A stretch of 64,000 nt of DNA from an uncultured Candidatus Saccharibacteria bacterium (GCA_964389975.1 CAYMGJ010000001.1:22240-86239); one strand, 5' to 3'. Positions 1 to 61,307 are shown, counted from the first letter of the stretch. The notes: generated by a model from the sequence alone, not told the origin. Translations and numbers: made by a program.

Positions 1-227
1 ATGCGGGTAGATTATTTGTTTATTATAGCCCCAAATTAAATACTTGTATCTCTGGCTATCAGCTAGATGTATTAAATTTTGAAATAGACGACGATAGAAG
101 TTCTATAAAAAATATTCTTACAGGTGAGACTCTCTTTAATTTCGATAATTACAATGAATATTTAGAAAAGATTGAGGAGCTTACTCGACCATCAATTTTT
201 ATGATTGATAAATATTTAAATGATTAA
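1..227 (+). CDS. hypothetical protein, 3' fragment (5' end outside window)
   Basis: Open frame from window edge (frame 3) to TAA at 225-227; no recognisable motif. Confidence 0.25.
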   Translation, partial: AGRLFVYYSPKLNTCISGYQLDVLNFEIDDDRSSIKNILTGETLFNFDNYNEYLEKIEELTRPSIFMIDKYLND

Positions 228-444
228 TAAAATACTCTTCCAAGCTAAAAGAAATAAAATTGTACTTCTTGCGATACTAGTTGTAATAAGTTTTTATTGG
301 TATTCTCTAAGACCATATTTAATAGTTAAGAAATGCATTCAGTTAGCTAATGACAAGGTCGACAATATTCGTGGTGATCAGACGGATGTAAGATATTTTT
401 TTGGAAATGTGAAAAACAAAATGGCATATCTAATTAACAAGTAA
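220..444 (+). CDS. small hypothetical membrane protein (74 aa, one hydrophobic helix)
   Basis: ORF track; hydrophobic stretch IVLLAILVVISFYWY. Confidence 0.3.
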   Translation: MINKILFQAKRNKIVLLAILVVISFYWYSLRPYLIVKKCIQLANDKVDNIRGDQTDVRYFFGNVKNKMAYLINK

Positions 445-479
445 AATGACTCGCCGGATTAGATTATGCAGAAACAGAT

Positions 480-824
480 ATGATTAATAGGGTTATTGAT
501 TTAGCTAAGCGAGCAAAAGAAATATATATGAAGCGATCCCCGGAAGAAAAGAGATTACTTCTGAGTCATATTTTTTCGAACTCGATGCTAAAAGATCAGA
601 AGGTGGCTTATACACTTACTAAAAATGTAGAGTGTATTACTCAGAGGGTCCAAGAGAAATTAGATAGTGAAAAAGTCTTAGAACCGAACAAGTGTGGCCC
701 TACTAAAGGGCAAAAGGACTCTTTTGAGTCCATCTGTTCTGCTATGTTCTCCTTGCAGGACAATTTTCAGACAATATTTAAGATATGGTTATGTGTAATT
801 TATGCAAGACCTCGTCTATATTAA
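480..824 (+). CDS. hypothetical protein (114 aa)
   Basis: ORF track; no recognisable motif. Confidence 0.3.
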   Translation: MINRVIDLAKRAKEIYMKRSPEEKRLLLSHIFSNSMLKDQKVAYTLTKNVECITQRVQEKLDSEKVLEPNKCGPTKGQKDSFESICSAMFSLQDNFQTIFKIWLCVIYARPRLY

Positions 825-856
825 AATTCGTCATTATCTATGATAATATATAATCT

Positions 857-1552
857 ATGAAGGATCTTATTCATAAGAATTTTTTTTTGATCGAGGATCT
901 TTCTTTTGATATTCTATACTCCCTACTTAGAAGGATGTTGTGCCTACCAATTAGATTTCTATGGATAAAAAACGTTGTCGGCTTTGATAAAATTCCTAAA
1001 AAGGGTGGGGTTATACTAGCAATGAATCATCAAAGCTACTTTGATTTTCTTTGTTTAGCTGCCGTGTCTCCTAGAAATATACACTTCCTTGCTGCTGAAA
1101 AATTTTTCGAGCACTGGTTGTGGAGGTATCTCATGAAGGTAACAAAACAGGTTAGGGTTAATAGATTTGAAACTGATAAAAAGGAGATGCATAATCTTGT
1201 TCATGATCACTTAGAACAGAAAAGGGTGATTGGAATTTTTCCTGAGGGGACAAGATCACCGCACGAACATGAAATGTTAAAAGCTTTTACTGGTGTTGCT
1301 CAGTATGGACTTTTAAAAAAAGTTCCAATTATCCCCATCGGTATAAAGGGGACATTTTCTGTTATGTCTAAATATGATAGAAGGCCTCATCTAGTAAAAA
1401 GAGTAGAGATAATTATCGGGGATCCTATACATTTTCTTGAATATCACAAAAGAAATGATTTGACCCATGTTGATTATAATGCCGTTACTCACAAGGTAAT
1501 GAAAGAAATATCAATTCTTTCTGGAAAATCTTATCCACATAAACATGATTAA
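857..1552 (+). CDS. plsC: 1-acyl-sn-glycerol-3-phosphate acyltransferase family (PlsC-like)
   Basis: Acyltransferase HX4D motif (NHQSYFD) and FPEGTRS motif in translation. Confidence 0.75.
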   Translation: MKDLIHKNFFLIEDLSFDILYSLLRRMLCLPIRFLWIKNVVGFDKIPKKGGVILAMNHQSYFDFLCLAAVSPRNIHFLAAEKFFEHWLWRYLMKVTKQVRVNRFETDKKEMHNLVHDHLEQKRVIGIFPEGTRSPHEHEMLKAFTGVAQYGLLKKVPIIPIGIKGTFSVMSKYDRRPHLVKRVEIIIGDPIHFLEYHKRNDLTHVDYNAVTHKVMKEISILSGKSYPHKHD

Positions 1553-2255
1553 ATATAAAAAAGTTGCTTTTTTGGATTTTGATGGAACTTTGATTAATGG
1601 TCAAAGTCAGAGATATTTAATTAGATATTTTTTTAAGAAAGACATTATTAGTTTTTTTAGATATTTCGTAGTATTGATTTGGTTTTTATTTTTTAAATTT
1701 TTAAATTTCAAAGATACAAAGGGAATATTGGAATTTGCAGTTTCTGGAATTTCTGGAAAAAATAAGGATTACATCTCTCAAGTTTTTGATAATTTTTTTA
1801 ATTCTGAATGTAAGTGTTTAATATATAGGAATAGTAAAAATTTAGTTAGAATCTTGAAACAGAAAGGTTTTTATGTCATCCTTTTTTCAAGCGCAATTGA
1901 TGATCTGGTTAACAGAGCGTCTATTTTTCTTGAGTGCAATGAACATATATCAACTAAACTAGAAGTAAAAAATAATTGTTATACAGGTAGAATTGATGGA
2001 GATGTTTTGTATGGTAAAAATAAGACAAAGGTATTTCTTGATTATATTTATAAAAATAAAATTGATCTTAACTATACATATGCATTTGCAGATCATTTTT
2101 CTGATCTCAATTTATTATTAAAGGTTGGACACCCCATCCCGACTAACCCTTCTAGACAACTGTGGAAATATGCGAATAAAAATAACTGGCCCGTGTTATA
2201 CTTAGATAATAATGAATCTTTTCAGTATTTCGAGTCTAATATTGTGTCTGAGTAG
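1545..2255 (+). CDS. HAD-superfamily hydrolase (HAD-IB/phosphoserine-phosphatase-like)
   Basis: N-terminal DxDGT motif (VAFLDFDGTLING); HAD-like organisation. Confidence 0.65.
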   Translation: MIKYKKVAFLDFDGTLINGQSQRYLIRYFFKKDIISFFRYFVVLIWFLFFKFLNFKDTKGILEFAVSGISGKNKDYISQVFDNFFNSECKCLIYRNSKNLVRILKQKGFYVILFSSAIDDLVNRASIFLECNEHISTKLEVKNNCYTGRIDGDVLYGKNKTKVFLDYIYKNKIDLNYTYAFADHFSDLNLLLKVGHPIPTNPSRQLWKYANKNNWPVLYLDNNESFQYFESNIVSE

Positions 2256-3810
2256 TATTGCGTTCAGTTTTATTATCTATAGAACAGACCGAACAAATAA
2301 AATAAATAAATCATGGTTTTATTCATGCATTTCCTTTTCCCTGTGGGCACTTGGGTTGACCGGTGTGACTTTGTCTAAAATGGAAAGTTCAGCGATTTTT
2401 TGGCAGTATTTATTGGATGTGTCAGCAATATTTCTTCCTTTCTTCTATCTTGTCTTTATTTTTAATCTCTTGAAGTTAAAAAAGATATCTATAATCTATC
2501 TTTTTGCATTAATTGCATCCGGACTTGCTTTGTTCAGTTTTACTCCGCTATTTAAACACGGGGTAACAGTACTCTATGGTTTTTATTGGATTAAACCAGG
2601 TGAATATTATATAGTTTTCCCAGCATATTTTTTATCAGTTGCTGTAATAACTCTGGGGTTATTAATAAGGCAATATTTTATATATAAAAAAGATAGCTTA
2701 TTAAGATCTCAAATTAGGAATACTCTAATAGCAGGAATTATTGGCTATACTGGTGGGCTTACAAATTTTTTTCCACAATTATTTAGTATCTATCCCTATG
2801 GGAATTATCTAGTTATTCTTTATATAGTTTTCATGGTTTATGGGGTTTTAAAATATAAACTTCTTAGTACCAAGGTCATTTCTGCACAAATATTCTCTAC
2901 TGCTCTTATATTGGTATCTCTGTTTAATCTTTTAAAATCAGAGCAAATTAATGATTGGTTGTTAAATTTTTTGATCCTCCTTCTTATTTCAGTCTTCAGT
3001 TATTTTTTGATAAATAGTGTGAATGAAGAAGTAAGAGCCCGCGAAAAAATAGAAAAACTAGCAACTGATCTCAAGGTGGCAAATACACGTTTAGTCGAAC
3101 TTGATAAACAAAAATCTGAGTTCGTATCATTTGCAACCCATCAGCTTAGAGCTCCTCTTACTGCAATGAAGGGATACACCTCTCTTATGCTTGAAAACGA
3201 AATGGGGACTCTTTCAGCTGAGGTTCGCACTGCTATTTCTCGCATTTATGAATCAGCCAAGACTCTAACTTCTATAGTTGATGACTATCTCAATATTTCT
3301 CGTATTGAGCTCGGTACTATGAAATACGCTTTCTCGGTTCTCGATCTAAAAGTTATGGTTTCTAATGTTATCGGAGAACTTAAGCCTAATATTGAGAAAA
3401 GCGGTCTTGTTACATCTTTTTCAACATCTCCATCAGGAGAATCTGAACGATTTATGGTCCGAGCCGATCAAGACAAACTTAAACAGGTTATAGCTAATCT
3501 CATTGATAATTCAATTAAATACACTCCTCAAGGTTCTCTTAACATATCTCTCATTAAGGATACGGATAAGAGAATAATTACATTTAAGATAAAGGATACA
3601 GGGGTAGGTATCGCCCCTGAGGTTATGCCGAAACTTTTCTCAAAATTTGTTCGTGCTGATAATGCTAATAAGCAAAATATCTATGGAACAGGTCTTGGAC
3701 TCTTTGTGGCAAAAGAGATAGTACTGGCTCATCATGGAAAGATCTGGGCTGAGTCTGAGGGGGATGGAAAGGGTAGTTGTTTCTATGTTGAGTTAGAAAT
3801 GTCAGTATAG
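2212..3810 (+). CDS. membrane sensor histidine kinase (multi-TM N-terminus, HisKA + HATPase_c)
   Basis: H-box FVSFATHQLRAPLTAMKGY; G-box GTGLGLFVAKEIV; multiple N-terminal hydrophobic helices. Confidence 0.85.
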   Translation: MNLFSISSLILCLSSIAFSFIIYRTDRTNKINKSWFYSCISFSLWALGLTGVTLSKMESSAIFWQYLLDVSAIFLPFFYLVFIFNLLKLKKISIIYLFALIASGLALFSFTPLFKHGVTVLYGFYWIKPGEYYIVFPAYFLSVAVITLGLLIRQYFIYKKDSLLRSQIRNTLIAGIIGYTGGLTNFFPQLFSIYPYGNYLVILYIVFMVYGVLKYKLLSTKVISAQIFSTALILVSLFNLLKSEQINDWLLNFLILLLISVFSYFLINSVNEEVRAREKIEKLATDLKVANTRLVELDKQKSEFVSFATHQLRAPLTAMKGYTSLMLENEMGTLSAEVRTAISRIYESAKTLTSIVDDYLNISRIELGTMKYAFSVLDLKVMVSNVIGELKPNIEKSGLVTSFSTSPSGESERFMVRADQDKLKQVIANLIDNSIKYTPQGSLNISLIKDTDKRIITFKIKDTGVGIAPEVMPKLFSKFVRADNANKQNIYGTGLGLFVAKEIVLAHHGKIWAESEGDGKGSCFYVELEMSV

Positions 3811-3815: not shown

Positions 3816-4703
3816 TTGTCTAATGTTATATTATTGTTACAATCAGAATATGAAATCAAGAGGCTTTTTACACTCATTGAACTTCTCGTAGTTATATCTG
3901 TCATATCACTTCTCTCAAGTGTTGTGCTTGCTGTAACAAATACAGCTCGTGAACGTGCACGTATTGCCGCTTCACAGACATTCAGTGGATATAATTTTCG
4001 AAATCTAGGTGCTGAAGCAGCTTTTTCTTTTAATTTCGATGAAGGAACTGGTCTTGTAACAAATGATTTCTTTAATAACTATAGTGCAAACCTCATCAAT
4101 GTTAACTGGAGTGCTGAAACACAAAACAACAAGGGGAGTTCCATGTATTTCCCTGGAATTGGTCCAGGGGCAGGGGCTGCAAATCAATATGTGTATATAA
4201 CCGGTCCAGGAGGGGTTCCTAAACAGGTGATGGTACCTACAGTTGTTACTGTGTCGGGGTGGATAAAGACAGCAACAGATTCATATGGAACTGTTTTTAC
4301 CAATAGAGGAAGTAGTGATACAGGCGTTGCGGGTAGTGGTAAATTTGCCTTCCTCATTACCACAAAAAGACTGTATATATATGCAAACAATGGGACGCCG
4401 TCCCTCTCCATGATTTCTCAGAAAGCAATTGCTGATAACAAATGGCATCATGTTGCATTTACATCAGATGGAACTCTTTGGATTCTTTATATAGACGGAA
4501 AAGAAGATTCTCGAATGGTTAATACCATGGGAGGAACGGCAGGGTGGGGAAGAATTGGGGCTGATGGCGCCTACTACACAACAGGATATCTTGATGACGT
4601 TAGTCTCTACAATCAATCCCTCACCTCTTCACAGATTGAATATCTCTACGCACAGGGAGTTGATTCTCATAGGGATTTTGCATCATCTCCTTCATATCGA
4701 TAA
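3816..4703 (+). CDS. type IV pilin-like (pseudopilin) protein with LamG/concanavalin-like domain; frame problem at 5' end (see findings)
   Basis: FTLIELLVVISVISLL prepilin N-terminal helix; WHHVAFTSDGTLWILYIDGKE laminin-G-like segment. ORF track starts at TTG 3816 with no RBS. ATG 3850 gives MKSRGF but is out of frame because of a T5 run at 3865-3869. Confidence 0.65.
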   Translation: MSNVILLLQSEYEIKRLFTLIELLVVISVISLLSSVVLAVTNTARERARIAASQTFSGYNFRNLGAEAAFSFNFDEGTGLVTNDFFNNYSANLINVNWSAETQNNKGSSMYFPGIGPGAGAANQYVYITGPGGVPKQVMVPTVVTVSGWIKTATDSYGTVFTNRGSSDTGVAGSGKFAFLITTKRLYIYANNGTPSLSMISQKAIADNKWHHVAFTSDGTLWILYIDGKEDSRMVNTMGGTAGWGRIGADGAYYTTGYLDDVSLYNQSLTSSQIEYLYAQGVDSHRDFASSPSYR

Positions 4704-5843: not shown

Positions 5844-6716
5844 GTGCTACAATATACGGGTATGTCATTACCTCGTCTAACTGAAGAAAAAGTTCAATTT
5901 CTCTTTGAGAAAGCTCTCGATGTACGACGTTCTGTTATACAAATGCTCATCGAGGCTCAGAGTGGGCACACTGCTGGACCTCTCGGTATGGCAGATATAT
6001 TTGTCTATCTCTATTTCCATGCCTTACAGCATGATCCTAAAAATCCAGCTTGGCCATATCGTGATCGTTTCGTTCTTTCTAATGGTCATATTTGCCCAGT
6101 TCTCTATGCTACGATGGCTCATGCAGGATATTTCCCTGTATCAGAACTTTCAACCTTACGAAAATTTGGTTCAAAACTCCAAGGACATCCTCATCGAGAG
6201 TTTCTTCCTGCCCTTGAGAATTCTTCGGGTCCTTTAGGTTCTGGACTCTCTCAGATTGTGGGAATGGCATTGGCTGAGCGTATTGATTTTGGTAGAACCT
6301 CAGGAAAACAATTTGTTGCTGTAACGGGAGATGGAGAACTTGATGAAGGGCAAAATTGGGAAGCAATTCTTCTTGCGGGTAAAGAGAAGATTCAAAATAT
6401 TACTGTTTTCATTGATCGTAACAATATACAAATTGATGGATTCACTGAAGACGTCATGCCCCTTAATCCTCTTGGAGACAAATTCCGTGCTTTCAATTGG
6501 CATGTACAAGAAGTTGATGGCCATAATTTCCGTGCTATCGATGAGGCATACACACAGGCACTTTCTGTTTTCGACAAACCTTCAGTTATTATCGCAAATA
6601 CCATTTCATCAAAGGGAATACCTGAGTTTGAACGAAAGTTTGAATGGCATGGTAAGCCACCAACAACTCCAGAAGAGATTCTCATAGCTCGGAAAGCTTT
6701 GGGAATTAGGGTGTAG
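5844..6716 (+). CDS. tkt: transketolase, N-terminal (TPP-binding) subunit
   Basis: GHTAGPLGMADIF, SNGHICPVLYA, GDGELDEGQNWEA motifs; split-gene form. Confidence 0.85.
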   Translation: MLQYTGMSLPRLTEEKVQFLFEKALDVRRSVIQMLIEAQSGHTAGPLGMADIFVYLYFHALQHDPKNPAWPYRDRFVLSNGHICPVLYATMAHAGYFPVSELSTLRKFGSKLQGHPHREFLPALENSSGPLGSGLSQIVGMALAERIDFGRTSGKQFVAVTGDGELDEGQNWEAILLAGKEKIQNITVFIDRNNIQIDGFTEDVMPLNPLGDKFRAFNWHVQEVDGHNFRAIDEAYTQALSVFDKPSVIIANTISSKGIPEFERKFEWHGKPPTTPEEILIARKALGIRV

Positions 6717-6746
6717 AGAAAAAACTCACTCAACATTAATTATTAA

Positions 6747-6866
6747 AAGAGTCTCGGTATTGCACAATCTGCTTTGGCACGTTTTGAATCAGGACGTGGA
6801 AATCCAACTCTGTTATTTTTACAAAAGATCACCTCAGGTCTCGGACTCAAACTCACAGTCATCTAA
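6747..6866 (+). pseudogene. remnant of an XRE-family helix-turn-helix regulator (C-terminal half of HTH only, no start codon)
   Basis: In-frame translation KSLGIAQSALARFESGRGNPTLLFLQKITSGLGLKLTVI* matches HTH_XRE helix 3 and following; bounded upstream by TAA. Confidence 0.4.
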
Positions 6867-6881
6867 TTTGTCTTTGTAAAC

Positions 6882-7151
6882 TTGGTGTATAATAGAGGGA
6901 TGATGCGAAACTTTGAAATCATTTTAAAAATTGCCTTTCTTGCAGGATCTATTGTGTTTCTTTTTACAAAAGATTTTAATTCTGTTGGTTTTCTCATATT
7001 TCTCATTGTCTGTGCTGTACTTGGTTGTGTTCTTGTTGTTAACAAAGATTCCAGCTATCACTATCCTCAAACACCTCGTGATTTAGTAATACGAAAGATT
7101 GAGGGCATTCTTCTTGTTGTGTTCTCGATAATTACCTTTATCTATGCTTAA
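6882..7151 (+). CDS. small hypothetical membrane protein (89 aa, 2-3 TM)
   Basis: ORF track; strongly hydrophobic; sits between the two transketolase genes. Confidence 0.35.
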   Translation: MVYNRGMMRNFEIILKIAFLAGSIVFLFTKDFNSVGFLIFLIVCAVLGCVLVVNKDSSYHYPQTPRDLVIRKIEGILLVVFSIITFIYA

Positions 7152-8743: not shown

Positions 8744-10762
8744 ATGTCATTGTTTCAGATATCACAAGATATGGCACCTGCAGGTGATCAGCCAAAGGCT
8801 ATTAAAGGACTCACCGAAGGGCTCTCAAAGGGTTTGAAGAAACAAACTCTTTTTGGCGTTACAGGATCGGGTAAAACATTTACCATGGCAAATGTCATTG
8901 CACAGCATGGTAAACCAACTCTTGTGATCGCTCATAACAAAACTCTTGCTGCACAGCTTGCTCAAGAATATCGAGAGTTTTTTCCTCATAATGCTGTTCA
9001 CTATTTCGTCTCATATTATGACTACTATCAACCTGAAGCATATATGCCCGTCACGGATACGTATATAGAGAAGGAGGCAATGATTAATGAAGAAATTGAA
9101 CGTCTTCGCCATGCCTCAACCCAGGCTCTCCTTACAAGAAAAGATGTTATCATCGTTGCTTCAGTATCTTGTATTTATGGTCTTGGTTCTCCTGTTGAAT
9201 ATGAAAAAGTAAATTTAAAGCTTGGAAAGGGACTAGAAATCCCTCGTGCTGAACTGATTCGCAAGCTCATCGATATACATTTTGAACGAACAACAACTGA
9301 TCTAAGTGCTGGTCAGTTCAGAGCTCTTGGGAATATGATTGAAATTATGCCGGTTAATGAAAGAACAATCTATCGTATTGAGTACGAAGGTAGTGTCATT
9401 TCAGATATCATTGAACTTGATCCTGTTACCATGGCTGTGCGTACCACACATACTGTCATCTTCCTTTTTCCTGCAAAGCACTTCATTAGTACTGATGAGC
9501 AATCAAAGAAAGCGTTTGAGAGTATAAAGAAGGAATTGGAGGGACGATTAAAGGAATTGGAAAAGGCGGGTAAGAATCTTGAGGCTGAGCGTTTGAAACG
9601 TCGAGTGAAGTACGATCTCGCTCTCATTCGTGAAGTTGGGTATTGTAATGGTATTGAAAACTACTCACGTCATTTCTCTGGCAAGAAATCAGGAGAAGCA
9701 CCTGATACTCTTCTTTCATATTTCCCCCATAAGAAGGATGGCAGTCCTGATTTCCTTACCGTTATCGATGAATCTCATGTGTCCGTACCGCAATTGGGAG
9801 GTATGTTTGCTGGAGATGCATCACGTAAAGAGACTCTTGTAGAGTTTGGTTTTAGACTTCCTTCTGCAAAAGACAATCGACCATTGAAATTTGAAGAATT
9901 CGAAGAAAGGGTTGGACAAGTTATCTACACCACCGCTACACCAGGAAAGTTTGAGAAGGAGCATAGTGAAAATATTGTAGAACAGATCATTCGCCCTACA
10001 GGTCTCATTGATCCTGTCATTGAGGTACGACCTGTTGCGGAGAAGGGGACATATGTTGGTCAGATCTTTGACTTCATTGCTGAAGCTGAGAAAGTCATAC
10101 GCCAAGGCGATCGAGTTATCGCCACCACCCTTACCAAGAAAATGGCAGAAGATTTAAGTGAATTTCTTAAGGACAAGGGGATAAAGGCGGAATATTTGCA
10201 TAGTGATATTAAAACCATTGACCGTATTACCATCCTTACTGATTTTAGAAAGGGAAAATTTGATGTACTTGTAGGGGTTAATCTCCTACGAGAAGGACTT
10301 GATCTTCCTGAAGTTTCACTCATTGGGATTCTTGATGCAGACAAAGCTGGTTTTCTTCGTTCTGAAACCTCCCTCATTCAGATCATTGGACGTGCTGCAC
10401 GAAATATCAATGGACGTGTCATCCTCTATGCTGATGTTATGAATGATGCTCTTCGCTATGCGATGAGTGAGACAGAACGTCGTCGCAAGATTCAAATGGA
10501 TTACAATACCAAACATGGTATTACTCCAAAGACAATCATCAAGAAGATTCAAGATATTACCGATCAACTTAAAACCGATCATGATAAAGCAGTGGCAGAA
10601 TTGATGAGAATTGATGAAGACATGCTTAAGGTTAATCCAAAGAAACTCCTTAAAGACAAGGAACAACAGATGAATGAAGCTGTGAAGGTTCTTGATTTTG
10701 AAACTGCCGCTATTCTCCGTGATGAAATTACTGAAATCAAGAAGAGGGTAGACGTTGAATAG
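8744..10762 (+). CDS. uvrB: excinuclease ABC subunit B
   Basis: GSGKTFTMANVIAQ Walker A, helicase motifs, C-terminal UVR domain; 672 aa. Confidence 0.95.
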   Translation: MSLFQISQDMAPAGDQPKAIKGLTEGLSKGLKKQTLFGVTGSGKTFTMANVIAQHGKPTLVIAHNKTLAAQLAQEYREFFPHNAVHYFVSYYDYYQPEAYMPVTDTYIEKEAMINEEIERLRHASTQALLTRKDVIIVASVSCIYGLGSPVEYEKVNLKLGKGLEIPRAELIRKLIDIHFERTTTDLSAGQFRALGNMIEIMPVNERTIYRIEYEGSVISDIIELDPVTMAVRTTHTVIFLFPAKHFISTDEQSKKAFESIKKELEGRLKELEKAGKNLEAERLKRRVKYDLALIREVGYCNGIENYSRHFSGKKSGEAPDTLLSYFPHKKDGSPDFLTVIDESHVSVPQLGGMFAGDASRKETLVEFGFRLPSAKDNRPLKFEEFEERVGQVIYTTATPGKFEKEHSENIVEQIIRPTGLIDPVIEVRPVAEKGTYVGQIFDFIAEAEKVIRQGDRVIATTLTKKMAEDLSEFLKDKGIKAEYLHSDIKTIDRITILTDFRKGKFDVLVGVNLLREGLDLPEVSLIGILDADKAGFLRSETSLIQIIGRAARNINGRVILYADVMNDALRYAMSETERRRKIQMDYNTKHGITPKTIIKKIQDITDQLKTDHDKAVAELMRIDEDMLKVNPKKLLKDKEQQMNEAVKVLDFETAAILRDEITEIKKRVDVE

Positions 10763-18097: not shown

Positions 18098-19270
18098 ATG
18101 TCTCAAAAAAATCAAAACTTTGGAGAGCCTATAGACCGGCTTCTTCGTAGTTACGAAGTTACTATGCAGTTTCTCTCTTTCGTGATTGAAATCTTCACAA
18201 AAGGACAGACAGGTCAGTTTGCTGATCCTTTCTGGAATCGGATCTTAAAAGGTCCAGTCACACATTGGCAAAGTTTTCGAAATTCTTTGCTTAAAGTGCA
18301 CACTGATGGATTTGACGTTGAAAAATACGTTGGACCAACACACAATAGTCATCCTCAAAGTATGAAGGAGTTCGAGTTCACCCAACCACGCTTGGTGGCA
18401 ATGCGTGTTGCTGAGTGGACAAAATCCTCTCGCAGAGTTTACCGTGTGCCAAAGGACCTTCAGTTGCTTTTGGCAGCCACAAGCCTTCAAGGTATCGACT
18501 GGTCAATGATCAAATGGCCTTTCGACTCGTTACTCATCTCTCTCGAGGAGCCACTGGTTTTTGGAGGGAAGACAATCGATGCGATCTTGATTGCCAAAGA
18601 AATTGTTCATGGTCATGAAGTCATGGCTATTGAAACTATTGCTACCGACTTGCCAACTATGGAGTCGGTGTTCATTGGCGATCAGCGTTCGAGGATTAAA
18701 AAAGCAATCCAAAAGGGCGACAAGGTTTCACTGGATTATGCAAAAGAAAAACTTGCATCCGCCGTCAAGAACCGTATGAATGGAGGTGGCAAAATATGGC
18801 TGACAAAAAAAGCCTGTTTTGAACCCGGAGGATTCGCTTCGAAATTTGAAGAACTTGATCTCGGAAAGGCAGATGAAACCTCGGCTTCAAAGGTGATCTT
18901 CAGGATCGTCTTTGGGTTGATGCTCTATCTACAGTCTCGTCCAACAAAGGAACTCATTCCAAAAGGATGGGAGCTGTCAACGTTTGAACGGCGAGAGGGT
19001 CCGAGTCGTGTAATCAGACTTGCATCGGAGGTTTGTGTGGTAAAAAGCATCTACTCACTGACTAGTGCAGAACGAGAGGTGCTTGAGCCAATTCTTCGTG
19101 GTGGTTATGTGGAGATTGCTCCGCATCACCGTGAAGGTCACTGGCGTCGTCCTCCCGGAAAAGGAGATGACCCTAATCATCCAAAGACTGTGTGGGTCTG
19201 TCCGACAATCGTGAGGCGTGACAAACTTGCTGATGGAGGATTGCCTCTTGGAAGCACTGAAGTCGTCTGA
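18098..19270 (+). CDS. hypothetical protein (390 aa; island ORF 2), GC-rich
   Basis: AGGAGG RBS 6 nt before ATG; no recognisable motif; ~50% GC against ~37% flanks. Confidence 0.5.
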   Translation: MSQKNQNFGEPIDRLLRSYEVTMQFLSFVIEIFTKGQTGQFADPFWNRILKGPVTHWQSFRNSLLKVHTDGFDVEKYVGPTHNSHPQSMKEFEFTQPRLVAMRVAEWTKSSRRVYRVPKDLQLLLAATSLQGIDWSMIKWPFDSLLISLEEPLVFGGKTIDAILIAKEIVHGHEVMAIETIATDLPTMESVFIGDQRSRIKKAIQKGDKVSLDYAKEKLASAVKNRMNGGGKIWLTKKACFEPGGFASKFEELDLGKADETSASKVIFRIVFGLMLYLQSRPTKELIPKGWELSTFERREGPSRVIRLASEVCVVKSIYSLTSAEREVLEPILRGGYVEIAPHHREGHWRRPPGKGDDPNHPKTVWVCPTIVRRDKLADGGLPLGSTEVV

Positions 19271-19805: not shown

Positions 19806-20696
19806 ATGAAAACAATCGAAAATAATACCGTTAAGCTCGTTAGTCACTTCCAACGTGGTGGTTGGGTCAGTCAATGGGATGGACAAAAGTTTGTCAAAGT
19901 CGCCAGTGCCGCGGAGAATACCTGGTATGACGATGGTGACGACTCAAAAGAAGTCGCCCTTCCCGAAGGTTTCAAGGGTGCGGTCGGTGAGTTCCATGGC
20001 GTGTCATCATCGGTCGCATTGGTTGGATTCACTGATGAGGAGCTCAATGCTCCCTCACCAGTTCAAGGTTGGGACAATGTTGGTGTTGGATTTCGTGCTG
20101 AAAGGTGCGAACTCATCAGGAACCTTGGGGATTACCTCAAGGCAATTGCCAACAACTCGTTCGTTGCCATTCCTGAAAAGGGTGACGTACACACAGTCTC
20201 CGGCAATCGCCTCGTCGAACTTCCGTTCGATTGGGGTGATCAAGCAGCAAATCACTATGCTATCATTTCGCCGAAAGGTGAAATTCTAAGCGAAGTGAGT
20301 GGCTGTGGCGATCAAGCCCCTTACCCGCTCAAGGCGGATATGACAAAGGACTGGGAGTTCTCCTCGTTGTTTGAGGACATGAATCGTAAAAACGAGCGTA
20401 ACAACGCCGCGTTCAAGGCGGGGTGGTCCGACAAGTGGCAGGAAGTCGCGAATCATCTTCGCTCTTGCTATAAGATGGGTCAAAACCCCCTGCCAACACT
20501 TCGCAAGAAGTATACTGGCAAATGGGTTTACCATCAGGCAGGAACATTGCCGGAAGATAGTGAAGTCGGGGAAGTCCGCTTCACCGAACTTCCCCAACGG
20601 GAGAACGAAACAGCGACAGCGCCGGACGGACACTCCAGTTTCTGGGGCAACGTTTGGAATCGCTGGCAGGTGAGTTACATCCCTGCAACGCTTTGA
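19806..20696 (+). CDS. hypothetical protein (296 aa; island ORF 3), GC-rich
   Basis: ORF track; ~52% GC; no recognisable motif. Confidence 0.5.
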   Translation: MKTIENNTVKLVSHFQRGGWVSQWDGQKFVKVASAAENTWYDDGDDSKEVALPEGFKGAVGEFHGVSSSVALVGFTDEELNAPSPVQGWDNVGVGFRAERCELIRNLGDYLKAIANNSFVAIPEKGDVHTVSGNRLVELPFDWGDQAANHYAIISPKGEILSEVSGCGDQAPYPLKADMTKDWEFSSLFEDMNRKNERNNAAFKAGWSDKWQEVANHLRSCYKMGQNPLPTLRKKYTGKWVYHQAGTLPEDSEVGEVRFTELPQRENETATAPDGHSSFWGNVWNRWQVSYIPATL

Positions 20697-28890: not shown

Positions 28891-29925
28891 ATGACAACGA
28901 TACAATTTAAACCAAAACAAGTAACCAAGAAACTGCTTTCAGTGCTTCCTGATCGTGCTCGTGATGTACTCATTAGTCGCTATGGTCTTGGTAAGAATAC
29001 CGACAAGATGACTCTTGATGCTATTGGTAAGACTTATGGTATTACCCGTGAGCGTGTACGACAGATTGAAAACTATGCACTTACGAATATTCGTAAGTCT
29101 GATGCATACAAATCTGAGAAATCATCTTTTGTTGGTCTTGAAGAAGCCCTTCATAGTCTTGGTGGTATCGTTGTTGAAGATGATTTCCTTGGACATATGT
29201 CAAAAGATGTATCTCTCCAGAATCATATCCATTTCATCCTCGTTGTGGGTGATACCTTTAAGAAACGAAAGGAAGATGATGATTTCAAGCATCGATGGCA
29301 TGTAAATGAAGAACTTGCTCGACAGGTTGAAGAATCTCTCAAGAAACTCTATTCAGGTCTTTCAAATGATGATCTCCTTCCAGAATCAGAAGTTCTCTCA
29401 AACTTCTTGAAGCATCTTGAAAATGTATCTGAGAAATACAAGAATCAGGAGATCATGAGACGATGGCTCGGACTTTCAAAGAATATTGCAAAGAATGCTC
29501 TTGGTGAATGGGGTGTTTCTTCATCTCCAAATGTTAAGGCGAAGGGAATGAGAGATTACGCTTTCCTTGTTATCAGAAAGCATGGATCTCCAATCCATTT
29601 CAAAGAGGTTGCAAAGCAGATTACTCAGGTGTTTAAGAAGAAGGCCCATGTTGCAACAACTCACAATGAACTTATCAAAGATCAACGTTTTGTACTTGTG
29701 GGACGAGGGCTCTATGCTCTTAAGGAATGGGGATATGTATCAGGAGTTGTTAAGGATGTTATCAAGAAGATTATAGAAAAGAATGGTCCTCTCACTCGAG
29801 AAGAGATCATCGACAAGGTTTTGAAAGAAAGATATGTAAAGGACAATACTATCATTGTGAATCTTCAGAATCAGAAATATTTTAAGAAAGACAAGGAAGG
29901 AAGATATCACATCGTAACTGAGTAA
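28891..29925 (+). CDS. sigma-70 region-4 (HTH) domain-containing protein
   Basis: N-terminal LSVLPDRARDVLISRYGL...TLDAIGKTYGITRERVRQIENYAL resembles sigma-70 region 4.2; remainder unassigned. Confidence 0.5.
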   Translation: MTTIQFKPKQVTKKLLSVLPDRARDVLISRYGLGKNTDKMTLDAIGKTYGITRERVRQIENYALTNIRKSDAYKSEKSSFVGLEEALHSLGGIVVEDDFLGHMSKDVSLQNHIHFILVVGDTFKKRKEDDDFKHRWHVNEELARQVEESLKKLYSGLSNDDLLPESEVLSNFLKHLENVSEKYKNQEIMRRWLGLSKNIAKNALGEWGVSSSPNVKAKGMRDYAFLVIRKHGSPIHFKEVAKQITQVFKKKAHVATTHNELIKDQRFVLVGRGLYALKEWGYVSGVVKDVIKKIIEKNGPLTREEIIDKVLKERYVKDNTIIVNLQNQKYFKKDKEGRYHIVTE

Positions 29926-29952: not shown

Positions 29953-31149
29953 TTGTATATTCTAAAAATGATATACTTTGTTGGTATGATTGACTTACTC
30001 ATTTCTCTACTTGGATCAAGTATTACTCTTGTCTTCAGACTATCCGTTATCTGGTTCCCCCTTATCCTCCTGTATATCTTCTGTATATTGTGGGTACGCT
30101 ATGCACGTATGCATTTCCTTAACAGTCTTGAATGGGATCTCCTTGAAATACGGGTTCCTCAAGAAGTTTCTAAATCACCTCTTGCTATGGAGACCTTCCT
30201 TTCATTCCTGTATCAAACAGGTGGAGAAAAGAAGTTTAAGGACAAGTATATTAAAGGATCAGTACGTCCATACTTTTCACTTGAAATTGCTTCCATTGAA
30301 GGACAAGTTAAATTCTATATCTACACTCAGAAGAAATTTCGTAATTTCATAGAAACAGGTCTCTATGCGCAGTATCCTAATATTGAAATACATGATGCTC
30401 CTGACTATACCCGTTCAGTACATTTTGATGAAGAAAAGACTGAAATGTTCACCACGGAATACAAGCTTTCTCAGCCTGATCCATATCCGATAAAGACATA
30501 TGTTGATTATGGAATTGAGAATACTGCGGTAAAAGAAGAATTCAAGACGGATCCAATCAATACCATTGTTGAATTTATGGGTTCAATTGGTGCTAATCAG
30601 CAGTGTTGGATGCAGATTGTAATTCGTGCCCATAAGAAAGATCACAAGGAGGGTATATTTTCTGAACCCATTGATCTCTGGAAGAAACAGGCTAAGGATG
30701 AGATTAAGAAAATTAAGGAAGGGACAGTTACAAAGGAGGGGGATAGCAGTTTTGCAAATCCAACAAAGGGAGATATGGAGAAAATTTATGCAATTGAGAA
30801 AAGCGTATCTAAAATATCTTTTGATACTGGTATTCGAGTTGTGTATTGGGGAAAGAAAGGATTCTTTAATTCTGCAAACAAGAGTGGTGTATCCGCACTT
30901 CTCCGTGCATATAGCTCTCCAAATCTTAATAGCTTTGAAACTGAGAATGATGAGGATAATGATGCTCAAGGTCTTCTTGCATACAAAACTCGTAGTTTCT
31001 TCTACTATCCAATTATCGGCAAGAAAATTGTGCTTAATGTAGAAGAACTTGCTTCAATATTCCATCTTCCTGGCCAAGTTACTCAGACACCTACATTTGC
31101 TCGTATTCCTTCACGTAAATCAGAAGCTCCAAGTAATCTACCTATCTAA
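29953..31149 (+). CDS. hypothetical membrane protein (2 N-terminal TM helices, 398 aa)
   Basis: ORF track; hydrophobic N-terminus. Confidence 0.4.
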   Translation: MYILKMIYFVGMIDLLISLLGSSITLVFRLSVIWFPLILLYIFCILWVRYARMHFLNSLEWDLLEIRVPQEVSKSPLAMETFLSFLYQTGGEKKFKDKYIKGSVRPYFSLEIASIEGQVKFYIYTQKKFRNFIETGLYAQYPNIEIHDAPDYTRSVHFDEEKTEMFTTEYKLSQPDPYPIKTYVDYGIENTAVKEEFKTDPINTIVEFMGSIGANQQCWMQIVIRAHKKDHKEGIFSEPIDLWKKQAKDEIKKIKEGTVTKEGDSSFANPTKGDMEKIYAIEKSVSKISFDTGIRVVYWGKKGFFNSANKSGVSALLRAYSSPNLNSFETENDEDNDAQGLLAYKTRSFFYYPIIGKKIVLNVEELASIFHLPGQVTQTPTFARIPSRKSEAPSNLPI

Positions 31150-37700: not shown

Positions 37701-38891
37701 GTGTATCATATGGCATTGTTCTCTCACACGACAACGGAAGAACTCTCACTTCTCATCGATATACAGAGTGGTCTTGTACGAGGCTCGCTCATTTCATTTA
37801 AGAAAAACACTGCTCCTCATATTATCTTCGTAGCAACTCGAGCTATTCCTCGGAAAGAAAAGACTTCAAGTGAGCAATTGACGAATGATATGCTCGTGGC
37901 TGTACGAGATATTGTTGAATTGCTTGGAATCGAGGGTGTTGAACGTGCTCAATCACTTGGTTTTAACAAGAGAGATCTTAAGGATATTCATTATGTTCTT
38001 TCTTCGCCGTGGGTTATGTCAGAGTCAAAAACTATTCATGTAGTATTTGATACAGAAACAAGTGTTTCAGAGAAGTTGATCAATACCATTGTCGACAAAG
38101 AGAAGATTCATCTCAAGGATGATTTTAAAGAAGGACTTGAACAGAATGGTGGACTTCAGGATCTTGTCTGTATGGAACAGAAGATATTTGAAATCAAACT
38201 CAATGGGTATCGTGTTGAGGAGTATATAGGGAGAAAAACACATGCAATTGATATTTCTTTTGCATCTACCTTATGTTCAGGAAGTCTTCTTGAGAAAATA
38301 CATTCATGTGTACAGTCAGTTCTTCATATCAAGAAGCATTCTTTCCACTCATCTCTTCTCCTCTACTTCGCTTCTCTACGACTCATTGTGGGTAACAGGG
38401 ATGAATTCATATCGATACATGTTCACAGTGAATTAACTGATATTGTTGTTGTGAAGAGATCTACCTGTGCATATATCGCTTCATTTCCTTTCGGTACGAA
38501 TACTCTGAGTCGAAAGGTTGCTCTGATTAACAAGTCATCTATAACTGAAGCAGATTCAGTACTCTCTCTTCTCTATGGAAAAAAACTTGAAGAACATGAG
38601 GAGTACCGAGTGGGTAAAATCATAGATCCTGTACTCACAGAATGGCATGAGCAATGTCTTGCGTGCATTGAGGCTCTTGGTGAGCGTACCATCATTCCTA
38701 ATGTTGTATATCTCTCATCACATGATCATTTCGAAGTATTTAAGGAATTGCTGATTCATAGGAATAGCTATACATTTGAAATTCTTCCTTTCGATGAAAC
38801 TCTCATGACAGATCTTGTTGTATTTGAAAAAACGGCTGAACACAATCCACTGGTATCAGCATATGCACTTGCATTGAAGGATATGATATAA
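37701..38891 (+). CDS. hypothetical protein, possible actin-like ATPase fold (PilM/FtsA-like)
   Basis: LIDIQSGLVRGS and AIDISFASTL segments loosely resemble phosphate-binding motifs of the ASKHA fold; weak. Confidence 0.3.
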   Translation: MYHMALFSHTTTEELSLLIDIQSGLVRGSLISFKKNTAPHIIFVATRAIPRKEKTSSEQLTNDMLVAVRDIVELLGIEGVERAQSLGFNKRDLKDIHYVLSSPWVMSESKTIHVVFDTETSVSEKLINTIVDKEKIHLKDDFKEGLEQNGGLQDLVCMEQKIFEIKLNGYRVEEYIGRKTHAIDISFASTLCSGSLLEKIHSCVQSVLHIKKHSFHSSLLLYFASLRLIVGNRDEFISIHVHSELTDIVVVKRSTCAYIASFPFGTNTLSRKVALINKSSITEADSVLSLLYGKKLEEHEEYRVGKIIDPVLTEWHEQCLACIEALGERTIIPNVVYLSSHDHFEVFKELLIHRNSYTFEILPFDETLMTDLVVFEKTAEHNPLVSAYALALKDMI

Positions 38892-53039: not shown

Positions 53040-53064
53040 GTATATTCTCTGGTATAATATCTTC

Positions 53065-53793
53065 ATGCAATCTTTTAGGATAAAGACTGGAACATTCGAA
53101 GGTCCTCTTGATCTTCTCCTTTCTCTTGTTGAAAAGAAGAAACTTTTCATCAATGATATATCTCTTGCACAGGTTACTGATGATTTCATACATCATATAG
53201 AAAACTTTGAAAATATACCTATGGGAGAATCTGCCCAATTCATACTCATTGCCTCAACTCTCCTTCTCATTAAATCAAAATCTCTTCTTCCTGTTCTTAC
53301 CCTCACTGAAGAAGAAGAGCAGGGGATACATGATCTTGAAACACGTCTCAAGATATATCAGAGGATAAAGGAGGGGAGTGTACATATTAAGAAAATGTTT
53401 GGAGAACATATTCTTTTTTTTCCAGAAACAACACATGCAACTCCTGTGGTTTTCTCCCCTCATCAATCAATGAATCTTCTTTCTCTTGTTGAGGTATTAA
53501 AAAATATCATTACCTCATTACCAAAGAAAGAATCTGCACCTAAAGCTGTTATACGTCAGGTTATCAGTCTTGAAACTATGATTGATAGTCTTTCAGAGAG
53601 GATTACCCATAGCTTACGTATGAAGTTCAGTGATTTCTCTGCTAGTCACAAACATGAAAAAGTTAATGTCATTGTGAGCTTTCTTGCTATGCTTGAACTT
53701 GTAAAACAAGGAGTTATCCATGCCACACAGGATGATCATAAGGGAGATATACACATGGAAACTCAACAGATAGGGGTTCCGCGGTATAATTAA
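53065..53793 (+). CDS. scpA: segregation and condensation protein A
   Basis: FEGPLDLLLSLVEKKKLFINDISLAQVTDDF N-terminus typical of ScpA. Confidence 0.8.
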   Translation: MQSFRIKTGTFEGPLDLLLSLVEKKKLFINDISLAQVTDDFIHHIENFENIPMGESAQFILIASTLLLIKSKSLLPVLTLTEEEEQGIHDLETRLKIYQRIKEGSVHIKKMFGEHILFFPETTHATPVVFSPHQSMNLLSLVEVLKNIITSLPKKESAPKAVIRQVISLETMIDSLSERITHSLRMKFSDFSASHKHEKVNVIVSFLAMLELVKQGVIHATQDDHKGDIHMETQQIGVPRYN

Positions 53794-53796
53794 AAT

Positions 53797-55432: not shown

Positions 55433-55435
55433 CTT

Positions 55436-56572: not shown

Positions 56573-56641
56573 GAAAATGCTATACTAACTTACAAGCTTA
56601 TATAGAGAAGCCTATTAATAATTTAATTTAAAACATACTAT

Positions 56642-57148: not shown

Positions 57149-57204
57149 TAAACTCTGAGATATATTCAACAAAAAAGTACCCTAAGAGGTACTTTTTTGC
57201 TATA

Positions 57205-59776: not shown

Positions 59777-59831
59777 ATCATGTGTCTGAGGATGGTATAC
59801 TTGAAAGGTATATAAATAAATTAAAATCTTT

Positions 59832-60110: not shown

Positions 60111-60335
60111 GTAGAAAATGAGGCCGGTAGAAATACCGGCTTTATTTTAAGGTATGTAATGCGTAAAAGATATATTGTGCGACGTGGTATGGCCTGAGAG
60201 TATCGTAGTTAAAATCACGGAACTCATACTCTCCCCCTTTATCAAACCAGATAAAAGAAAACCGCCCGACGGAAAGCCGTTTGGTTTTCGTGAGCGGTTA
60301 CACACAACCCTGAGAGTTGTTATCTTGGATATCCC

Positions 60336-61300: not shown

Positions 61301-61307
61301 GGAGTGA

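What the first reader, a model, noticed from the sequence alone, without database searches (positions are those of the whole stretch)
3845..3875. Canonical prepilin leader (MKSRG|FTLIELLVV) is only reachable by a frameshift at a T5 tract
The pilin-like LamG protein contains the hallmark FTLIELLVVISV N-terminal helix, with Glu at +5 relative to the Phe. In that frame there is no ATG or RBS; the ORF caller had to use TTG 3816. An ATG at 3850 encodes MKSRGF, a textbook class III signal peptide ending in Gly. It runs into the homopolymer ggcTTTTTa (3865-3869) and terminates 8 codons later. With three or six T's the product would read MKSRG-F(F)TLIELLVVI, a complete prepilin. A single-step -1 slip on TTT TTA instead gives MKSRGFLTLIELLVV. 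So there are three possibilities: a homopolymer sequencing or assembly error, slipped-strand phase variation of a surface pilin, or programmed ribosomal slippage.
Basis: seen in the sequence. Interest (0 to 1): 0.55.

Follow-up and report, generated by a model that had tools for sequence, protein, structure and literature searches.

The report
Frameshifted lectin-pilin gene, two extra T's
A gene for a sugar-binding pilus subunit in an uncultured ultrasmall bacterium has two extra T's exactly where its signal peptide joins the mature protein. This is most likely an ordinary recent knockout mutation, not a sequencing error or a programmed recoding signal.

Summary
ATG 3850 encodes MKSRG, runs into T5 (3865-3869) and stops at TAG 3889-3891. 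The FTLIELLVV... LamG-pilin body (3867-4703) lies in the -1 frame, with Leu at -1 and no ATG.

Six syntenic orthologous loci (about 84% nt identity) all read ATGAAATCAAGAGGATTTACTCTC, that is MKSRG|FTLIE in one frame with T3. The window lineage therefore carries a +2 T insertion at the cleavage junction.

The same T5 is present in two other contigs. One comes from a different NCBI assembly (11 SNPs in 6.9 kb). The other is an unpolished Logan assembly of SRR10036018. In the window, 22 intact genes hold about 1500 homopolymer runs without any frame break. An assembly artefact is therefore unlikely.

There is no true slippery heptamer, no downstream structure and no conservation of the shift, so programmed frameshifting is unsupported. 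T5 is far shorter than known phase-variable tracts and no tract-length variation was seen.

ATG 3850 lies 6 nt after an extended -10 box, as do many gene starts here, so the mRNA is probably leaderless and the called TTG starts fall in the promoter.

Best reading: a recent, genuine null allele of an accessory lectin-type pilin. The ORF remains intact and the four SNPs between strains are all synonymous, so residual function cannot be excluded. Interest is low.

The parts
3816..3843 (+). Promoter-like site: -35 TTGTCT (3816-3821), 16-nt spacer, extended -10 TGtTACAAT (3835-3843). The -10 ends 6 nt before ATG 3850, so the transcript is probably leaderless. The called TTG starts (3816, 3834) lie inside this promoter.
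   Evidence: 9/12 matches, TG present. The same geometry is found in orthologue L003 (TTTCCA-17-TGcTATAAT ending 6 nt before its ATG). Genome-wide, 15/39 gene starts have a -10-like box 4-8 nt upstream, versus 7.8% of all ATGs. With TG the figures are 6/39 versus 1.2%. No Shine-Dalgarno motifs are visible.
3850..3864 (+). Native start codon and class III leader peptide MKSRG (ATG AAA TCA AGA GGC).
   Evidence: ATGAAATCAAGAGG is identical in six orthologous loci, where it is in frame with FTLIE. The GGC/GGA difference is synonymous in this frame.
3865..3869 (+). T5 tract. Orthologues have T3 (GGA TTT ACT), so this is a +2 nt insertion exactly at the Gly(-1)|Phe(+1) cleavage junction.
   Evidence: The same T5 is present in L001 (GCA_013573075.1) and L004 (Logan SRR10036018).
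3850..3891 (+). Truncated reading frame actually specified from the native start: MKSRGFLHSLNFS, then TAG (3889-3891).
   Evidence: Read directly from the sequence.
3867..4703 (+). Mature pilin coding region (278 codons plus stop) in the -1 frame relative to ATG 3850. It encodes the FTLIELLVV... alpha-1 helix followed by a ConA-like/LamG jelly-roll. It is intact, with no internal stop.
   Evidence: Pfam Laminin_G_3 E=1.7e-19. AlphaFold2 model: pLDDT 82, helix 3-50, beta-sandwich 51-248. Foldseek hits to lectin-like neurotoxin HCN domains, E about 2e-9. dN/dS against sisters is 0.06-0.08.
4233..4637 (+). [quoted passage not shown]
   Evidence: residues 140-274 of the 295-aa ORF.
2212..3810 (+). 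Upstream neighbour: membrane sensor histidine kinase (HisKA + HATPase_c). Its stop lies 6 nt before TTG 3816. The kinase-pilin-rpiB-rpe-tktN order is conserved in all sister loci.

Best explanation
The gene encodes a modular type IV pilin: a class III signal peptide (MKSRG|FTLIELLVV...), an alpha-1 helix and a concanavalin-A-like/LamG lectin module. It belongs to a Patescibacteria-like (CPR) bacterium.

In the ancestral state, still present in the sister lineage, the mechanism would run as follows. A probably leaderless mRNA starts at the ATG. The prepilin is cut after Gly-1 by the prepilin peptidase. The subunit is then built into a pilus, where the lectin module would bind a surface glycan. 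These last steps are inferred by analogy.

In the window's lineage, two extra T's (T3 to T5) were inserted exactly at the Gly|Phe junction. Ribosomes starting at AUG 3850 now terminate after 13 codons at UAG 3889. The only in-frame starts are weak TTGs inside the promoter, and they would give Leu at -1, which cannot be processed.

The allele is therefore most likely a genuine, evolutionarily recent loss-of-function allele or young pseudogene of an accessory pilin, fixed in this population. It is not an artefact and not a recoding device.

Shown here: the +2 insertion, its presence in three contigs, the intact in-frame orthologues, and the domain architecture. Inferred: the leaderless transcript, the lack of product, and glycan adhesion.
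For: 1. Six syntenic orthologous loci (L002, L003, L005-L008) read ATGAAATCAAGAGGATTTACTCTC, that is MKSRG|FTLIE in one frame. The window clade reads GGCTTTTTACA, which is 2 nt longer.

2. T5 recurs in L001 (a different NCBI assembly; 11 SNPs in 6870 bp) and in L004 (an unpolished Logan assembly of SRR10036018; 100% identical over 2248 bp).

3. The assembly is otherwise clean. 22 Pfam-confirmed genes (28.9 kb) contain 149 runs of 5 or more, 322 runs of 4 and 1033 runs of 3, with no frame break. All 10 other proteins syntenic with L005 align end to end in a single frame, apart from the gap where L005's UvrB carries an intein. Only the pilin loses its first 12 residues.

4. All 35 homologues outside this allele have G (26), A (6) or S (3) at -1. 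Leu occurs only in the two gene models of this allele. Gly-1 is 'absolutely critical' for processing (PMC4471445).

5. N_methyl scores 16.0 bits as sequenced (below the 21.2 cut-off) and 30.6 after T3 repair.

6. ATG 3850 has the extended -10 box at the spacing typical of this genome's gene starts. TTG 3816 and TTG 3834 lie within that promoter and have no SD.

7. The body ORF is intact and dN/dS against the sisters is 0.06-0.08 at dS of about 1.3. The lesion is therefore young relative to the split.

8. Pfam Laminin_G_3 (E=1.7e-19), the AlphaFold2 model and Foldseek support the helix-plus-lectin architecture.
Against: No reads were available, so T-tract heterogeneity within the population is untested.

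It is unknown whether the three T5 contigs come from independent samples or sequencing platforms.

The two T5 strains differ by four SNPs inside the pilin ORF, and all four are synonymous (P about 0.003 if neutral and independent). The ORF carries no second lesion. Both facts would also fit continued expression by some unknown route. However, the SNPs cluster within 40 bp, so they may be one recombination tract rather than four events.

The leaderless transcript is inferred from consensus matches only. Read-through from the upstream kinase gene could include the TTG codons.
Confidence: 0.7

Rival explanations
1. Slipped-strand phase variation. The T tract expands and contracts during replication, switching the lectin pilin OFF (T4, T5) and ON (T3, T6). 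This would let the episymbiont vary its adhesin repertoire.
For: The indel lies in a homopolymer at the signal-peptide region of a surface adhesin. Neisseria pilC is switched by a homopolymer tract within its reading frame (PMC5953494). ON (T3) and OFF (T5) states both exist among relatives. The OFF allele's ORF is intact, and its only intra-clade SNPs are synonymous, as expected if the gene is periodically used.
Against: T5 is far below the tract lengths treated as phase-variable; PhasomeIt thresholds are G>=9 and T>=11 (PMC5953494). There is no length variation within either clade: 3/3 contigs have T5 and 6/6 have T3, and the clades are separated by dS of about 1.3. No in-frame variant of this allele exists in its 90% cluster among about 15 billion proteins. 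Reversion to T3 needs a -2 step. The single +1 step to T6 puts Glu at +6 and fails the N_methyl model.
Confidence: 0.12
2. Sequencing, assembly or polishing error. The true sequence is T3 and the gene is intact.
For: The lesion is in a homopolymer. The source is an uncultured-organism assembly. The independence of the three contigs, by sample and by platform, could not be established (searches returned no metadata).
Against: The same T5 appears in a second assembly whose consensus differs by 11 SNPs, and in a Logan unitig assembly built directly from reads. The error would have to be +2 in a run of only three T's. About 1500 other runs of 3 or more in 22 genes show no frameshift. No other syntenic gene is broken.
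Confidence: 0.07
3. Programmed -1 ribosomal frameshifting, or corrective 'savior' frameshifting, on C_UUU_UUA. This would yield MKSRG|F(L/F)TLIELL..., so the pilin is still produced.
For: UUU_UUA is the 3' six bases of the HIV-1 U_UUU_UUA slip site (PMC4373837). The required direction (-1) matches. An AAGAGG purine run lies just upstream. The ORF is intact, with synonymous-only variation.
Against: The first base is C, so this is not an X_XXZ_ZZN heptamer. In E. coli, tetramers without a stimulator score about 0.15% against a 0.11% background. U_UUA is only 1.8-3.6 times a 0.064% background even with a pseudoknot (PMC4066793). There is no significant downstream structure (z = -1.1 and -1.3), and the nearest stem lies at least 20 nt away. 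The shift is absent from all six orthologues and all other homologues, and AAGAGG is simply the K-S-R-G codons, also present in them. The products would carry Glu at +6 and fail N_methyl (16.4-17.8 bits). Glu5 is needed for assembly (PMC4471445).
Confidence: 0.04
4. The long ORF is translated from TTG 3816 or TTG 3834 on read-through transcripts from the kinase gene. This would give an unprocessed, membrane-anchored LamG protein with a new, non-pilus role.
For: The frame is open from 3816. The kinase stop codon is only 6 nt upstream. The hydrophobic helix could act as a signal anchor. The ORF is intact.
Against: There is no SD or other initiation signal at either TTG. Both TTGs lie inside the conserved promoter-like element. 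The extension (…LLLQSEYEIKRL) is acidic and ends in Leu, unlike all 35 homologues. The extension is not conserved in the sister loci, whose upstream sequence differs.
Confidence: 0.05

Closest known systems
Patescibacteria/Parcubacteria 'prepilin-type N-terminal cleavage/methylation domain-containing' LamG proteins (homologues P0002-P0031)
   Same: Same architecture and length (about 260-300 aa): a short basic leader, then G/A/S|FTLIELLVV, then Laminin_G_3. The closest set (85% aa identity, P0002 and P0035-P0037) lies in the same kinase-pilin-rpiB-rpe-tktN context.
   Different: Only the window allele has the leader out of frame (T5 versus T3). It is the only cluster of the 31 full-length hits lacking a recorded N_methyl match together with a proper -1 residue.
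Streptococcus sanguinis PilC, a modular minor pilin with a ConA-like lectin module (PMC9934059)
   Same: A class III signal peptide and a short pilin moiety carrying a grafted concanavalin-A-like lectin/glucanase-superfamily module. PilC's module is a bona fide glycan-binding lectin, modelled at the pilus tip. The likely mode of action is the same.
   Different: No detectable sequence relationship: PilC is not among the PDB sequence hits at E<=1. PilC is larger (52.8 kDa) and has an additional Ig-like module. In the model here, the helix runs straight into the jelly-roll. Glycan binding was not tested here.
Neisseria pilC ON/OFF switching by a homopolymer tract in the reading frame (PMC5953494)
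   Same: A frameshift in a mononucleotide run near the 5' end of a pilus-adhesion gene abolishes the product.
   Different: Neisseria tracts are long (modal length about 9 or more) and vary between isolates. Here the run is T5 and invariant in the three contigs available. The change from the ON state is 2 nt, not 1.
HIV-1 gag-pol U_UUU_UUA -1 frameshift site (PMC4373837) and bacterial Z_ZZN / X_XXZ_ZZN motifs (PMC4066793)
   Same: It shares UUU_UUA, and the needed shift is -1.
   Different: The first base is C. There is no stem-loop at the right distance. The shift is not conserved in orthologues. U_UUA is among the weakest motifs in bacteria.

Membership tests
Type IV pilin (class III signal peptide; Pfam PF07963 N_methyl / TIGR02532) | A hydrophilic leader peptide ending in Gly (rarely Ala or Ser) at -1, in frame with the mature protein and preceded by a start codon | tested here: not met
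   As sequenced, the in-frame residue at -1 is Leu and the leader is ...EYEIKRL. N_methyl scores 16.0 bits against a 21.2 cut-off. MKSRG exists but is in the +1 frame relative to the body. The feature is met in all six orthologues and after T3 repair (30.6 bits).
Type IV pilin (class III signal peptide; Pfam PF07963 N_methyl / TIGR02532) | Phe/Met at +1, Glu at +5 and about 21 mainly hydrophobic residues forming the N-terminal alpha-1 helix | tested here: met
   FTLIELLVVISVISLLSSVVLAV. F1, L3, I4, E5, L6, L7, V8 and V9 are invariant in the 30-sequence alignment. The AlphaFold2 model has a helix over residues 3-50. TIGR02532 scores 19.1 bits, above its 16.3 cut-off, on the helix part alone.
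Type IV pilin (class III signal peptide; Pfam PF07963 N_methyl / TIGR02532) | A dedicated prepilin peptidase, assembly ATPase and platform protein encoded in the genome | not testable with these tools
   None lies in the 64-kb window: the 20 larger ORFs scanned are housekeeping genes or have no hit. The rest of the genome is not available. T4P machinery is reported as well conserved in Patescibacteria (PMC11623550).
Modular pilins with a ConA-like/LamG lectin module (S. sanguinis PilC type) | A concanavalin-A-like/LamG jelly-roll grafted C-terminal to the pilin helix | tested here: met
   Laminin_G_3 E=1.7e-19, residues 140-274. The model has a beta-sandwich over 51-248 (pLDDT 82, pTM 0.81). 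Foldseek gives E of about 2e-9 to the lectin-like HCN subdomain of clostridial neurotoxins.
Modular pilins with a ConA-like/LamG lectin module (S. sanguinis PilC type) | Sequence homology to PilC, and demonstrated glycan binding | tested here: not met
   No PilC chain appears among the PDB sequence hits at E<=1. The architecture is analogous, but this is not family membership. Glycan binding cannot be tested with these tools.
Simple-sequence-repeat phase-variable (contingency) locus | A hypermutable tract of sufficient length | tested here: not met
   The tract is T5. The window holds 114 T runs of 5 or more, so it is unremarkable. Operational thresholds in Neisseria are G>=9 and T>=11 (PMC5953494).
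Simple-sequence-repeat phase-variable (contingency) locus | Tract-length polymorphism among closely related strains or within a population | tested here: not met
   The window, L001 and L004 all have T5. Six sister loci all have T3. No in-frame member exists in the allele's 90% cluster. The sampling is small (three contigs) and no reads were available, so this is weak evidence.
Programmed -1 ribosomal frameshift site | A slippery X_XXZ_ZZN heptamer or an efficient Z_ZZN tetramer in the zero frame | tested here: not met
   The zero-frame sequence is C_UUU_UUA, so XXX is not satisfied. U_UUA is among the barely shift-prone tetramers (PMC4066793).
Programmed -1 ribosomal frameshift site | A stimulatory element (downstream hairpin or pseudoknot at about 5-9 nt, or an upstream SD at the proper distance) | tested here: not met
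   Folds of 3850-3950 and 3871-3940 give z = -1.12 and -1.27. The first stem starts at least 20 nt after the site.
Programmed -1 ribosomal frameshift site | Conservation of the two-frame arrangement in orthologues | tested here: not met
   All six orthologues and all other homologues are in a single frame.

The most novel reading that the evidence does not exclude
The T5 allele may not be dead. It could be a reversible or translationally rescued OFF state of a lectin-tipped pilin in an episymbiotic CPR bacterium. That would mean either short-tract phase variation or low-level 'savior' -1 shifting on a leaderless mRNA. Such a mechanism would let a reduced-genome organism modulate a host-binding adhesin. 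The four synonymous-only SNPs between two T5 strains and the otherwise intact ORF are what keep this reading open.
Probability: 0.1. Interest if true: 0.55.

Novelty: new member of a known kind. Interest (0 to 1): 0.2.

Why it matters
Mainly for annotation. Both automatic gene models (TTG 3816 and TTG 3834) are artefactual N-terminal extensions. The locus should be flagged as a frameshifted prepilin gene whose native start is ATG 3850. It should not be counted as a functional LamG protein or pilin when adhesin repertoires of Patescibacteria are inferred.

It also gives a small, clean example of strain- or species-level loss of one accessory lectin pilin in a lineage where type IV pili mediate host attachment. 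Finally, it shows that this genome initiates many genes from -10 boxes placed 4-8 nt upstream of the ATG (leaderless-type starts), which helps in choosing start codons here.

If the minority reading (a switchable adhesin) were true, it would be a first hint of contingency behaviour in CPR pili. Nothing found here points that way positively.

Tried and rejected
- DNA pattern scans for tract-length variants and for the conserved helix-coding stretch found nothing in JGI metagenome contigs or in GTDB genome contigs. All relatives came from the protein collection instead.
- A literature search for the run and assembly accessions (SRR10036018, JACCEA, GCA_013573075, SRR25018355, SRR28201393, GCA_964368995) returned no paper. 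Sample origin and sequencing platform remain unknown.
- Exact-sequence cluster look-ups of DnaK, UvrA and RpiB gave no organism names. The taxon is inferred only from homologue names (Ca. Taylorbacteria, Ca. Paceibacterota, Parcubacteria) and from gene content.
- An Rfam scan of the window found only one tRNA and no known frameshift element or riboswitch.
- RNA folding for a frameshift stimulator was not significant.
- Transcriptional slippage was considered and set aside. This rests on general knowledge that RNA polymerase slippage needs runs of roughly 8-9 A/T or more; T5 is too short and the orthologues lack the tract.
- Reinitiation after UAG 3889 at the in-frame GTG in 'agt gtt gtg ctt' was considered. 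It would remove the whole hydrophobic helix and give a cytoplasmic LamG fragment, so it was rejected as a route to a pilin.
- A lineage-specific dN/dS on the window branch could not be estimated, because no outgroup closer than 40% aa identity exists.

Full report
**1. The observation**

The sequence reads ...TGTTACAATCAGAAT ATG AAA TCA AGA GGC TTT TTA CAC TCA TTG AAC TTC TCG TAG. ATG 3850 therefore encodes MKSRGFLHSLNFS and stops at 3889-3891. The five T's occupy 3865-3869.

The long ORF found mechanically (TTG 3816..4703, 295 aa) is in the -1 frame relative to that ATG. It reads ...LLLQSEYEIKRL-FTLIELLVVISVISLLSS..., with Phe+1 at 3867-3869 and Glu+5 at 3879-3881. No ATG precedes the motif in that frame. 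NCBI's gene model used TTG 3834 instead (P0001, 289 aa).

T3 gives MKSRGFTLIE, T6 gives MKSRGFFTLIE, and a -1 slip at TTA gives MKSRGFLTLIE. A six-frame scan shows this is the only pilin-type motif in the 64 kb.

**2. What the gene is**

- Pfam finds Laminin_G_3 (concanavalin A-like lectin/glucanase superfamily, E=1.7e-19) over residues 140-274. N_methyl scores only 16.0 bits, below its 21.2 cut-off.
- 31 homologous clusters of 236-300 aa share the architecture 'short basic leader, then FTLIELLVV helix, then LamG'. The few that carry a source name are from Ca. Taylorbacteria, Ca. Paceibacterota and Parcubacteria MAGs.
- An AlphaFold2 model built from a 30-sequence alignment (pLDDT 82.4, pTM 0.81) has one long helix (3-50) running directly into a beta-sandwich (51-248).
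- The best PDB fold matches are the lectin-like jelly-roll subdomains of clostridial neurotoxin receptor-binding domains (E about 2e-9).

The architecture parallels Streptococcus sanguinis PilC, a modular minor pilin whose ConA-like module is a true glycan-binding lectin modelled at the pilus tip (PMC9934059). There is no detectable sequence relationship to PilC, however. Type IV pili are conserved in Patescibacteria and mediate host binding in cultivated members (PMC11623550).

The window itself contains housekeeping genes: UvrA/B/C, Ddl, G6PD, YchF, LeuRS, AlaRS, DnaK, further tRNA synthetases, split transketolase, RpiB and Rpe. It has no pilus machinery.

**3. Comparison with orthologues**

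The closest cluster (85% aa identity; P0002, P0035-P0037) was traced to six contigs: L002, L003, L005, L006, L007 and L008. They come from four Logan runs plus one NCBI MAG. All sit in the same histidine kinase - pilin - rpiB - rpe - tktN context.

All six read ATGAAATCAAGAGGATTTACTCTCAT, which is M K S R G | F T L I E in a single frame with three T's. The window reads ATGAAATCAAGAGGCTTTTTACACTCAT.

The window lineage therefore has two extra T's exactly at the Gly(-1)|Phe(+1) junction. The flanking differences are synonymous in their respective frames: GGA/GGC for Gly in the ATG frame, and ACT/ACA for Thr in the body frame.

Across all 35 homologues outside this allele, the -1 residue is G (26), A (6) or S (3). 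Leu occurs only in the two gene models of the window allele. [quoted passage not shown]

Only the T3 repair restores the family signature. N_methyl scores 30.6 bits and TIGR02532 30.6 for T3. T6 scores 16.4 and 19.2, and the slip product 17.8 and 19.1.

**4. Artefact or real?**

The identical T5 is present in two further contigs.

- L001 is a 22.6-kb contig of another NCBI assembly, GCA_013573075.1. Its consensus differs from the window at 11 of 6870 positions.
- L004 is a 2.2-kb contig from the Logan assembly of run SRR10036018. It is 100% identical to the window.

The required error would be +2 in a run of only three bases. Within the window, 22 Pfam-confirmed full-length genes (28.9 kb) contain 149 homopolymer runs of 5 or more, 322 runs of 4 and 1033 runs of 3, without a frame break.

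When the 11 proteins of the syntenic sister contig L005 are aligned to the window by tblastn, all but the pilin stay in a single frame from end to end. The one gap is where L005's UvrB carries an intein. The pilin alignment starts only at residue 13.

I could not establish the samples or platforms behind these contigs, so a small residual probability of a shared systematic error remains.

**5. Where translation starts**

A sigma-70-like element lies at TTGTCT (3816-3821), a 16-nt spacer, then TGtTACAAT (3835-3843). It ends 6 nt before ATG 3850. Orthologue L003 has TTTCCA-17-TGcTATAAT ending 6 nt before its MKSRG ATG.

None of the 25 gene starts inspected shows a Shine-Dalgarno motif. 15 of 39 gene starts have a -10-like TAnnnT box 4-8 nt upstream, against 7.8% of all ATG triplets. 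With a TG extension the figures are 6 of 39 against 1.2%.

The native mRNA is thus probably leaderless, beginning at or next to AUG 3850. This is an inference from consensus matches. If so, TTG 3816 and TTG 3834 lie in the promoter and are not translated from this transcript, and the AUG-initiated ribosome terminates after 13 codons.

**6. Recoding and phase variation**

The zero-frame sequence C_UUU_UUA lacks the first U of a true X_XXZ_ZZN heptamer. In E. coli, tetramer motifs without a stimulator score about 0.15% against a 0.11% background. U_UUA is only 1.8-3.6-fold above a 0.064% background even with the IS3 pseudoknot (PMC4066793).

RNA folds of 3850-3950 and 3871-3940 are not significant (z = -1.12 and -1.27). 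The first stem begins at least 20 nt after the site. Rfam finds nothing but a tRNA in the window. The two-frame arrangement is absent from all orthologues. Programmed frameshifting is therefore unsupported.

For phase variation, T5 is one of 114 T runs of 5 or more in the window. It is well below the operational tract lengths used for Neisseria (G>=9, T>=11; PMC5953494). All three contigs of this allele have T5 and all six sister loci have T3. The allele's 90%-identity cluster, within a collection of about 15 billion proteins, contains only the two frameshifted gene models.

**7. Age of the lesion and residual doubt**

The 278-codon body is intact. Against the sister alleles, dS is about 1.3-1.5 and dN/dS is 0.06-0.08. 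That is no higher than among the sisters themselves (0.016-0.098). The frameshift is therefore young relative to the split.

The window and L001 both carry T5 and differ at four sites in the pilin ORF (4379, 4388, 4400, 4418). All four are third-position and synonymous. L001 carries the sister-clade state at three of them. If the changes were neutral and independent, the probability would be about 0.003. But they cluster within 40 bp, as do four SNPs in the kinase gene, so they may be one recombination tract from an allele under selection.

This is the one observation that keeps 'still functional in some way' alive. I rate it as a minority possibility.

**8. Verdict**

- The best explanation (about 0.7) is a genuine, lineage-specific +2 insertion that uncouples the class III leader from the mature lectin-pilin. 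This gives a recent null allele or young pseudogene.
- Rivals: phase variation (about 0.12), artefact (about 0.07), translation from the upstream TTGs giving an unprocessed protein (about 0.05), and programmed or corrective frameshifting (about 0.04).
- The finding is ordinary biology and mainly an annotation correction, so interest is low (0.2).

Noticed in passing
window, gene starts throughout (e.g. 857, 4723, 11247, 15910, 24593, 35876, 49999, 53065): No Shine-Dalgarno motifs are visible upstream of the 25 gene starts inspected. 15 of 39 starts have a -10-like TAnnnT box, often with a TG extension, ending 4-8 nt before the ATG, against 7.8% of all ATGs. This suggests widespread leaderless or near-leaderless mRNAs in this genome.
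   Followed up: partly
window 8744-10762 versus L005 15086-18730: The sister lineage's UvrB is 1214 aa and carries an intein (Intein_splicing, LAGLIDADG_3) inserted after about residue 63. The window's UvrB is intein-free at 672 aa.
   Followed up: no
window 6716-7144 versus L002 3082-3679 and L006 5984-6581: Between the split transketolase halves (tktN, tktC), some sister strains carry a Gp49 (HigB-like) plus HTH toxin-antitoxin pair. The window and L005 have only a 430-550 nt gap there.
   Followed up: no
window 2643-2696 and 4379-4418 (versus L001): Eight of the 11 SNPs between the window and the second assembly fall in two tight clusters of about 40-55 bp. One is in the kinase gene and one in the pilin gene. 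All but one of the eight are synonymous. The pattern looks like short recombination tracts or a strain-mosaic consensus.
   Followed up: partly
window 1-3300: The first ~3 kb (acyltransferase, HAD hydrolase and the membrane part of the histidine kinase) has 24-35% GC, against about 40% in the rest of the window. Upstream synteny also differs between sister contigs: L005 has other genes before the kinase.
   Followed up: no
window ~52000-64000: Nearly all long ORFs from 1 to about 59.8 kb are on the + strand, and those after about 61.3 kb are on the - strand. Cumulative GC skew peaks near 52 kb and then falls. This is compatible with a replication terminus (converging leading strands) near the right end of the window.
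   Followed up: no
window 28891-29925: A 344-aa protein combines Sigma70 region 4 (residues 15-69) with a HARE-HTH domain (220-280). This is an unusual domain pairing.
   Followed up: no
window 18098-19270, 19806-20696, 29953-31149, 37701-38891, 38907-40265: Five sizeable ORFs (296-452 aa) have no Pfam match at E<=1e-5.
   Followed up: no
window 57205-58512 and 58205-59776: The mechanical ORF for the M23 peptidase (TTG 58205) overlaps the GluRS gene by about 300 nt. The true start is probably further downstream.
   Followed up: no
L006 1748-2989: In the NCBI MAG GCA_964368995.1, the orthologous histidine kinase is called at only 413 aa, against 532-538 aa elsewhere, with a ~300-nt gap upstream. 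This may be a truncation or a frameshift in that assembly.
   Followed up: no
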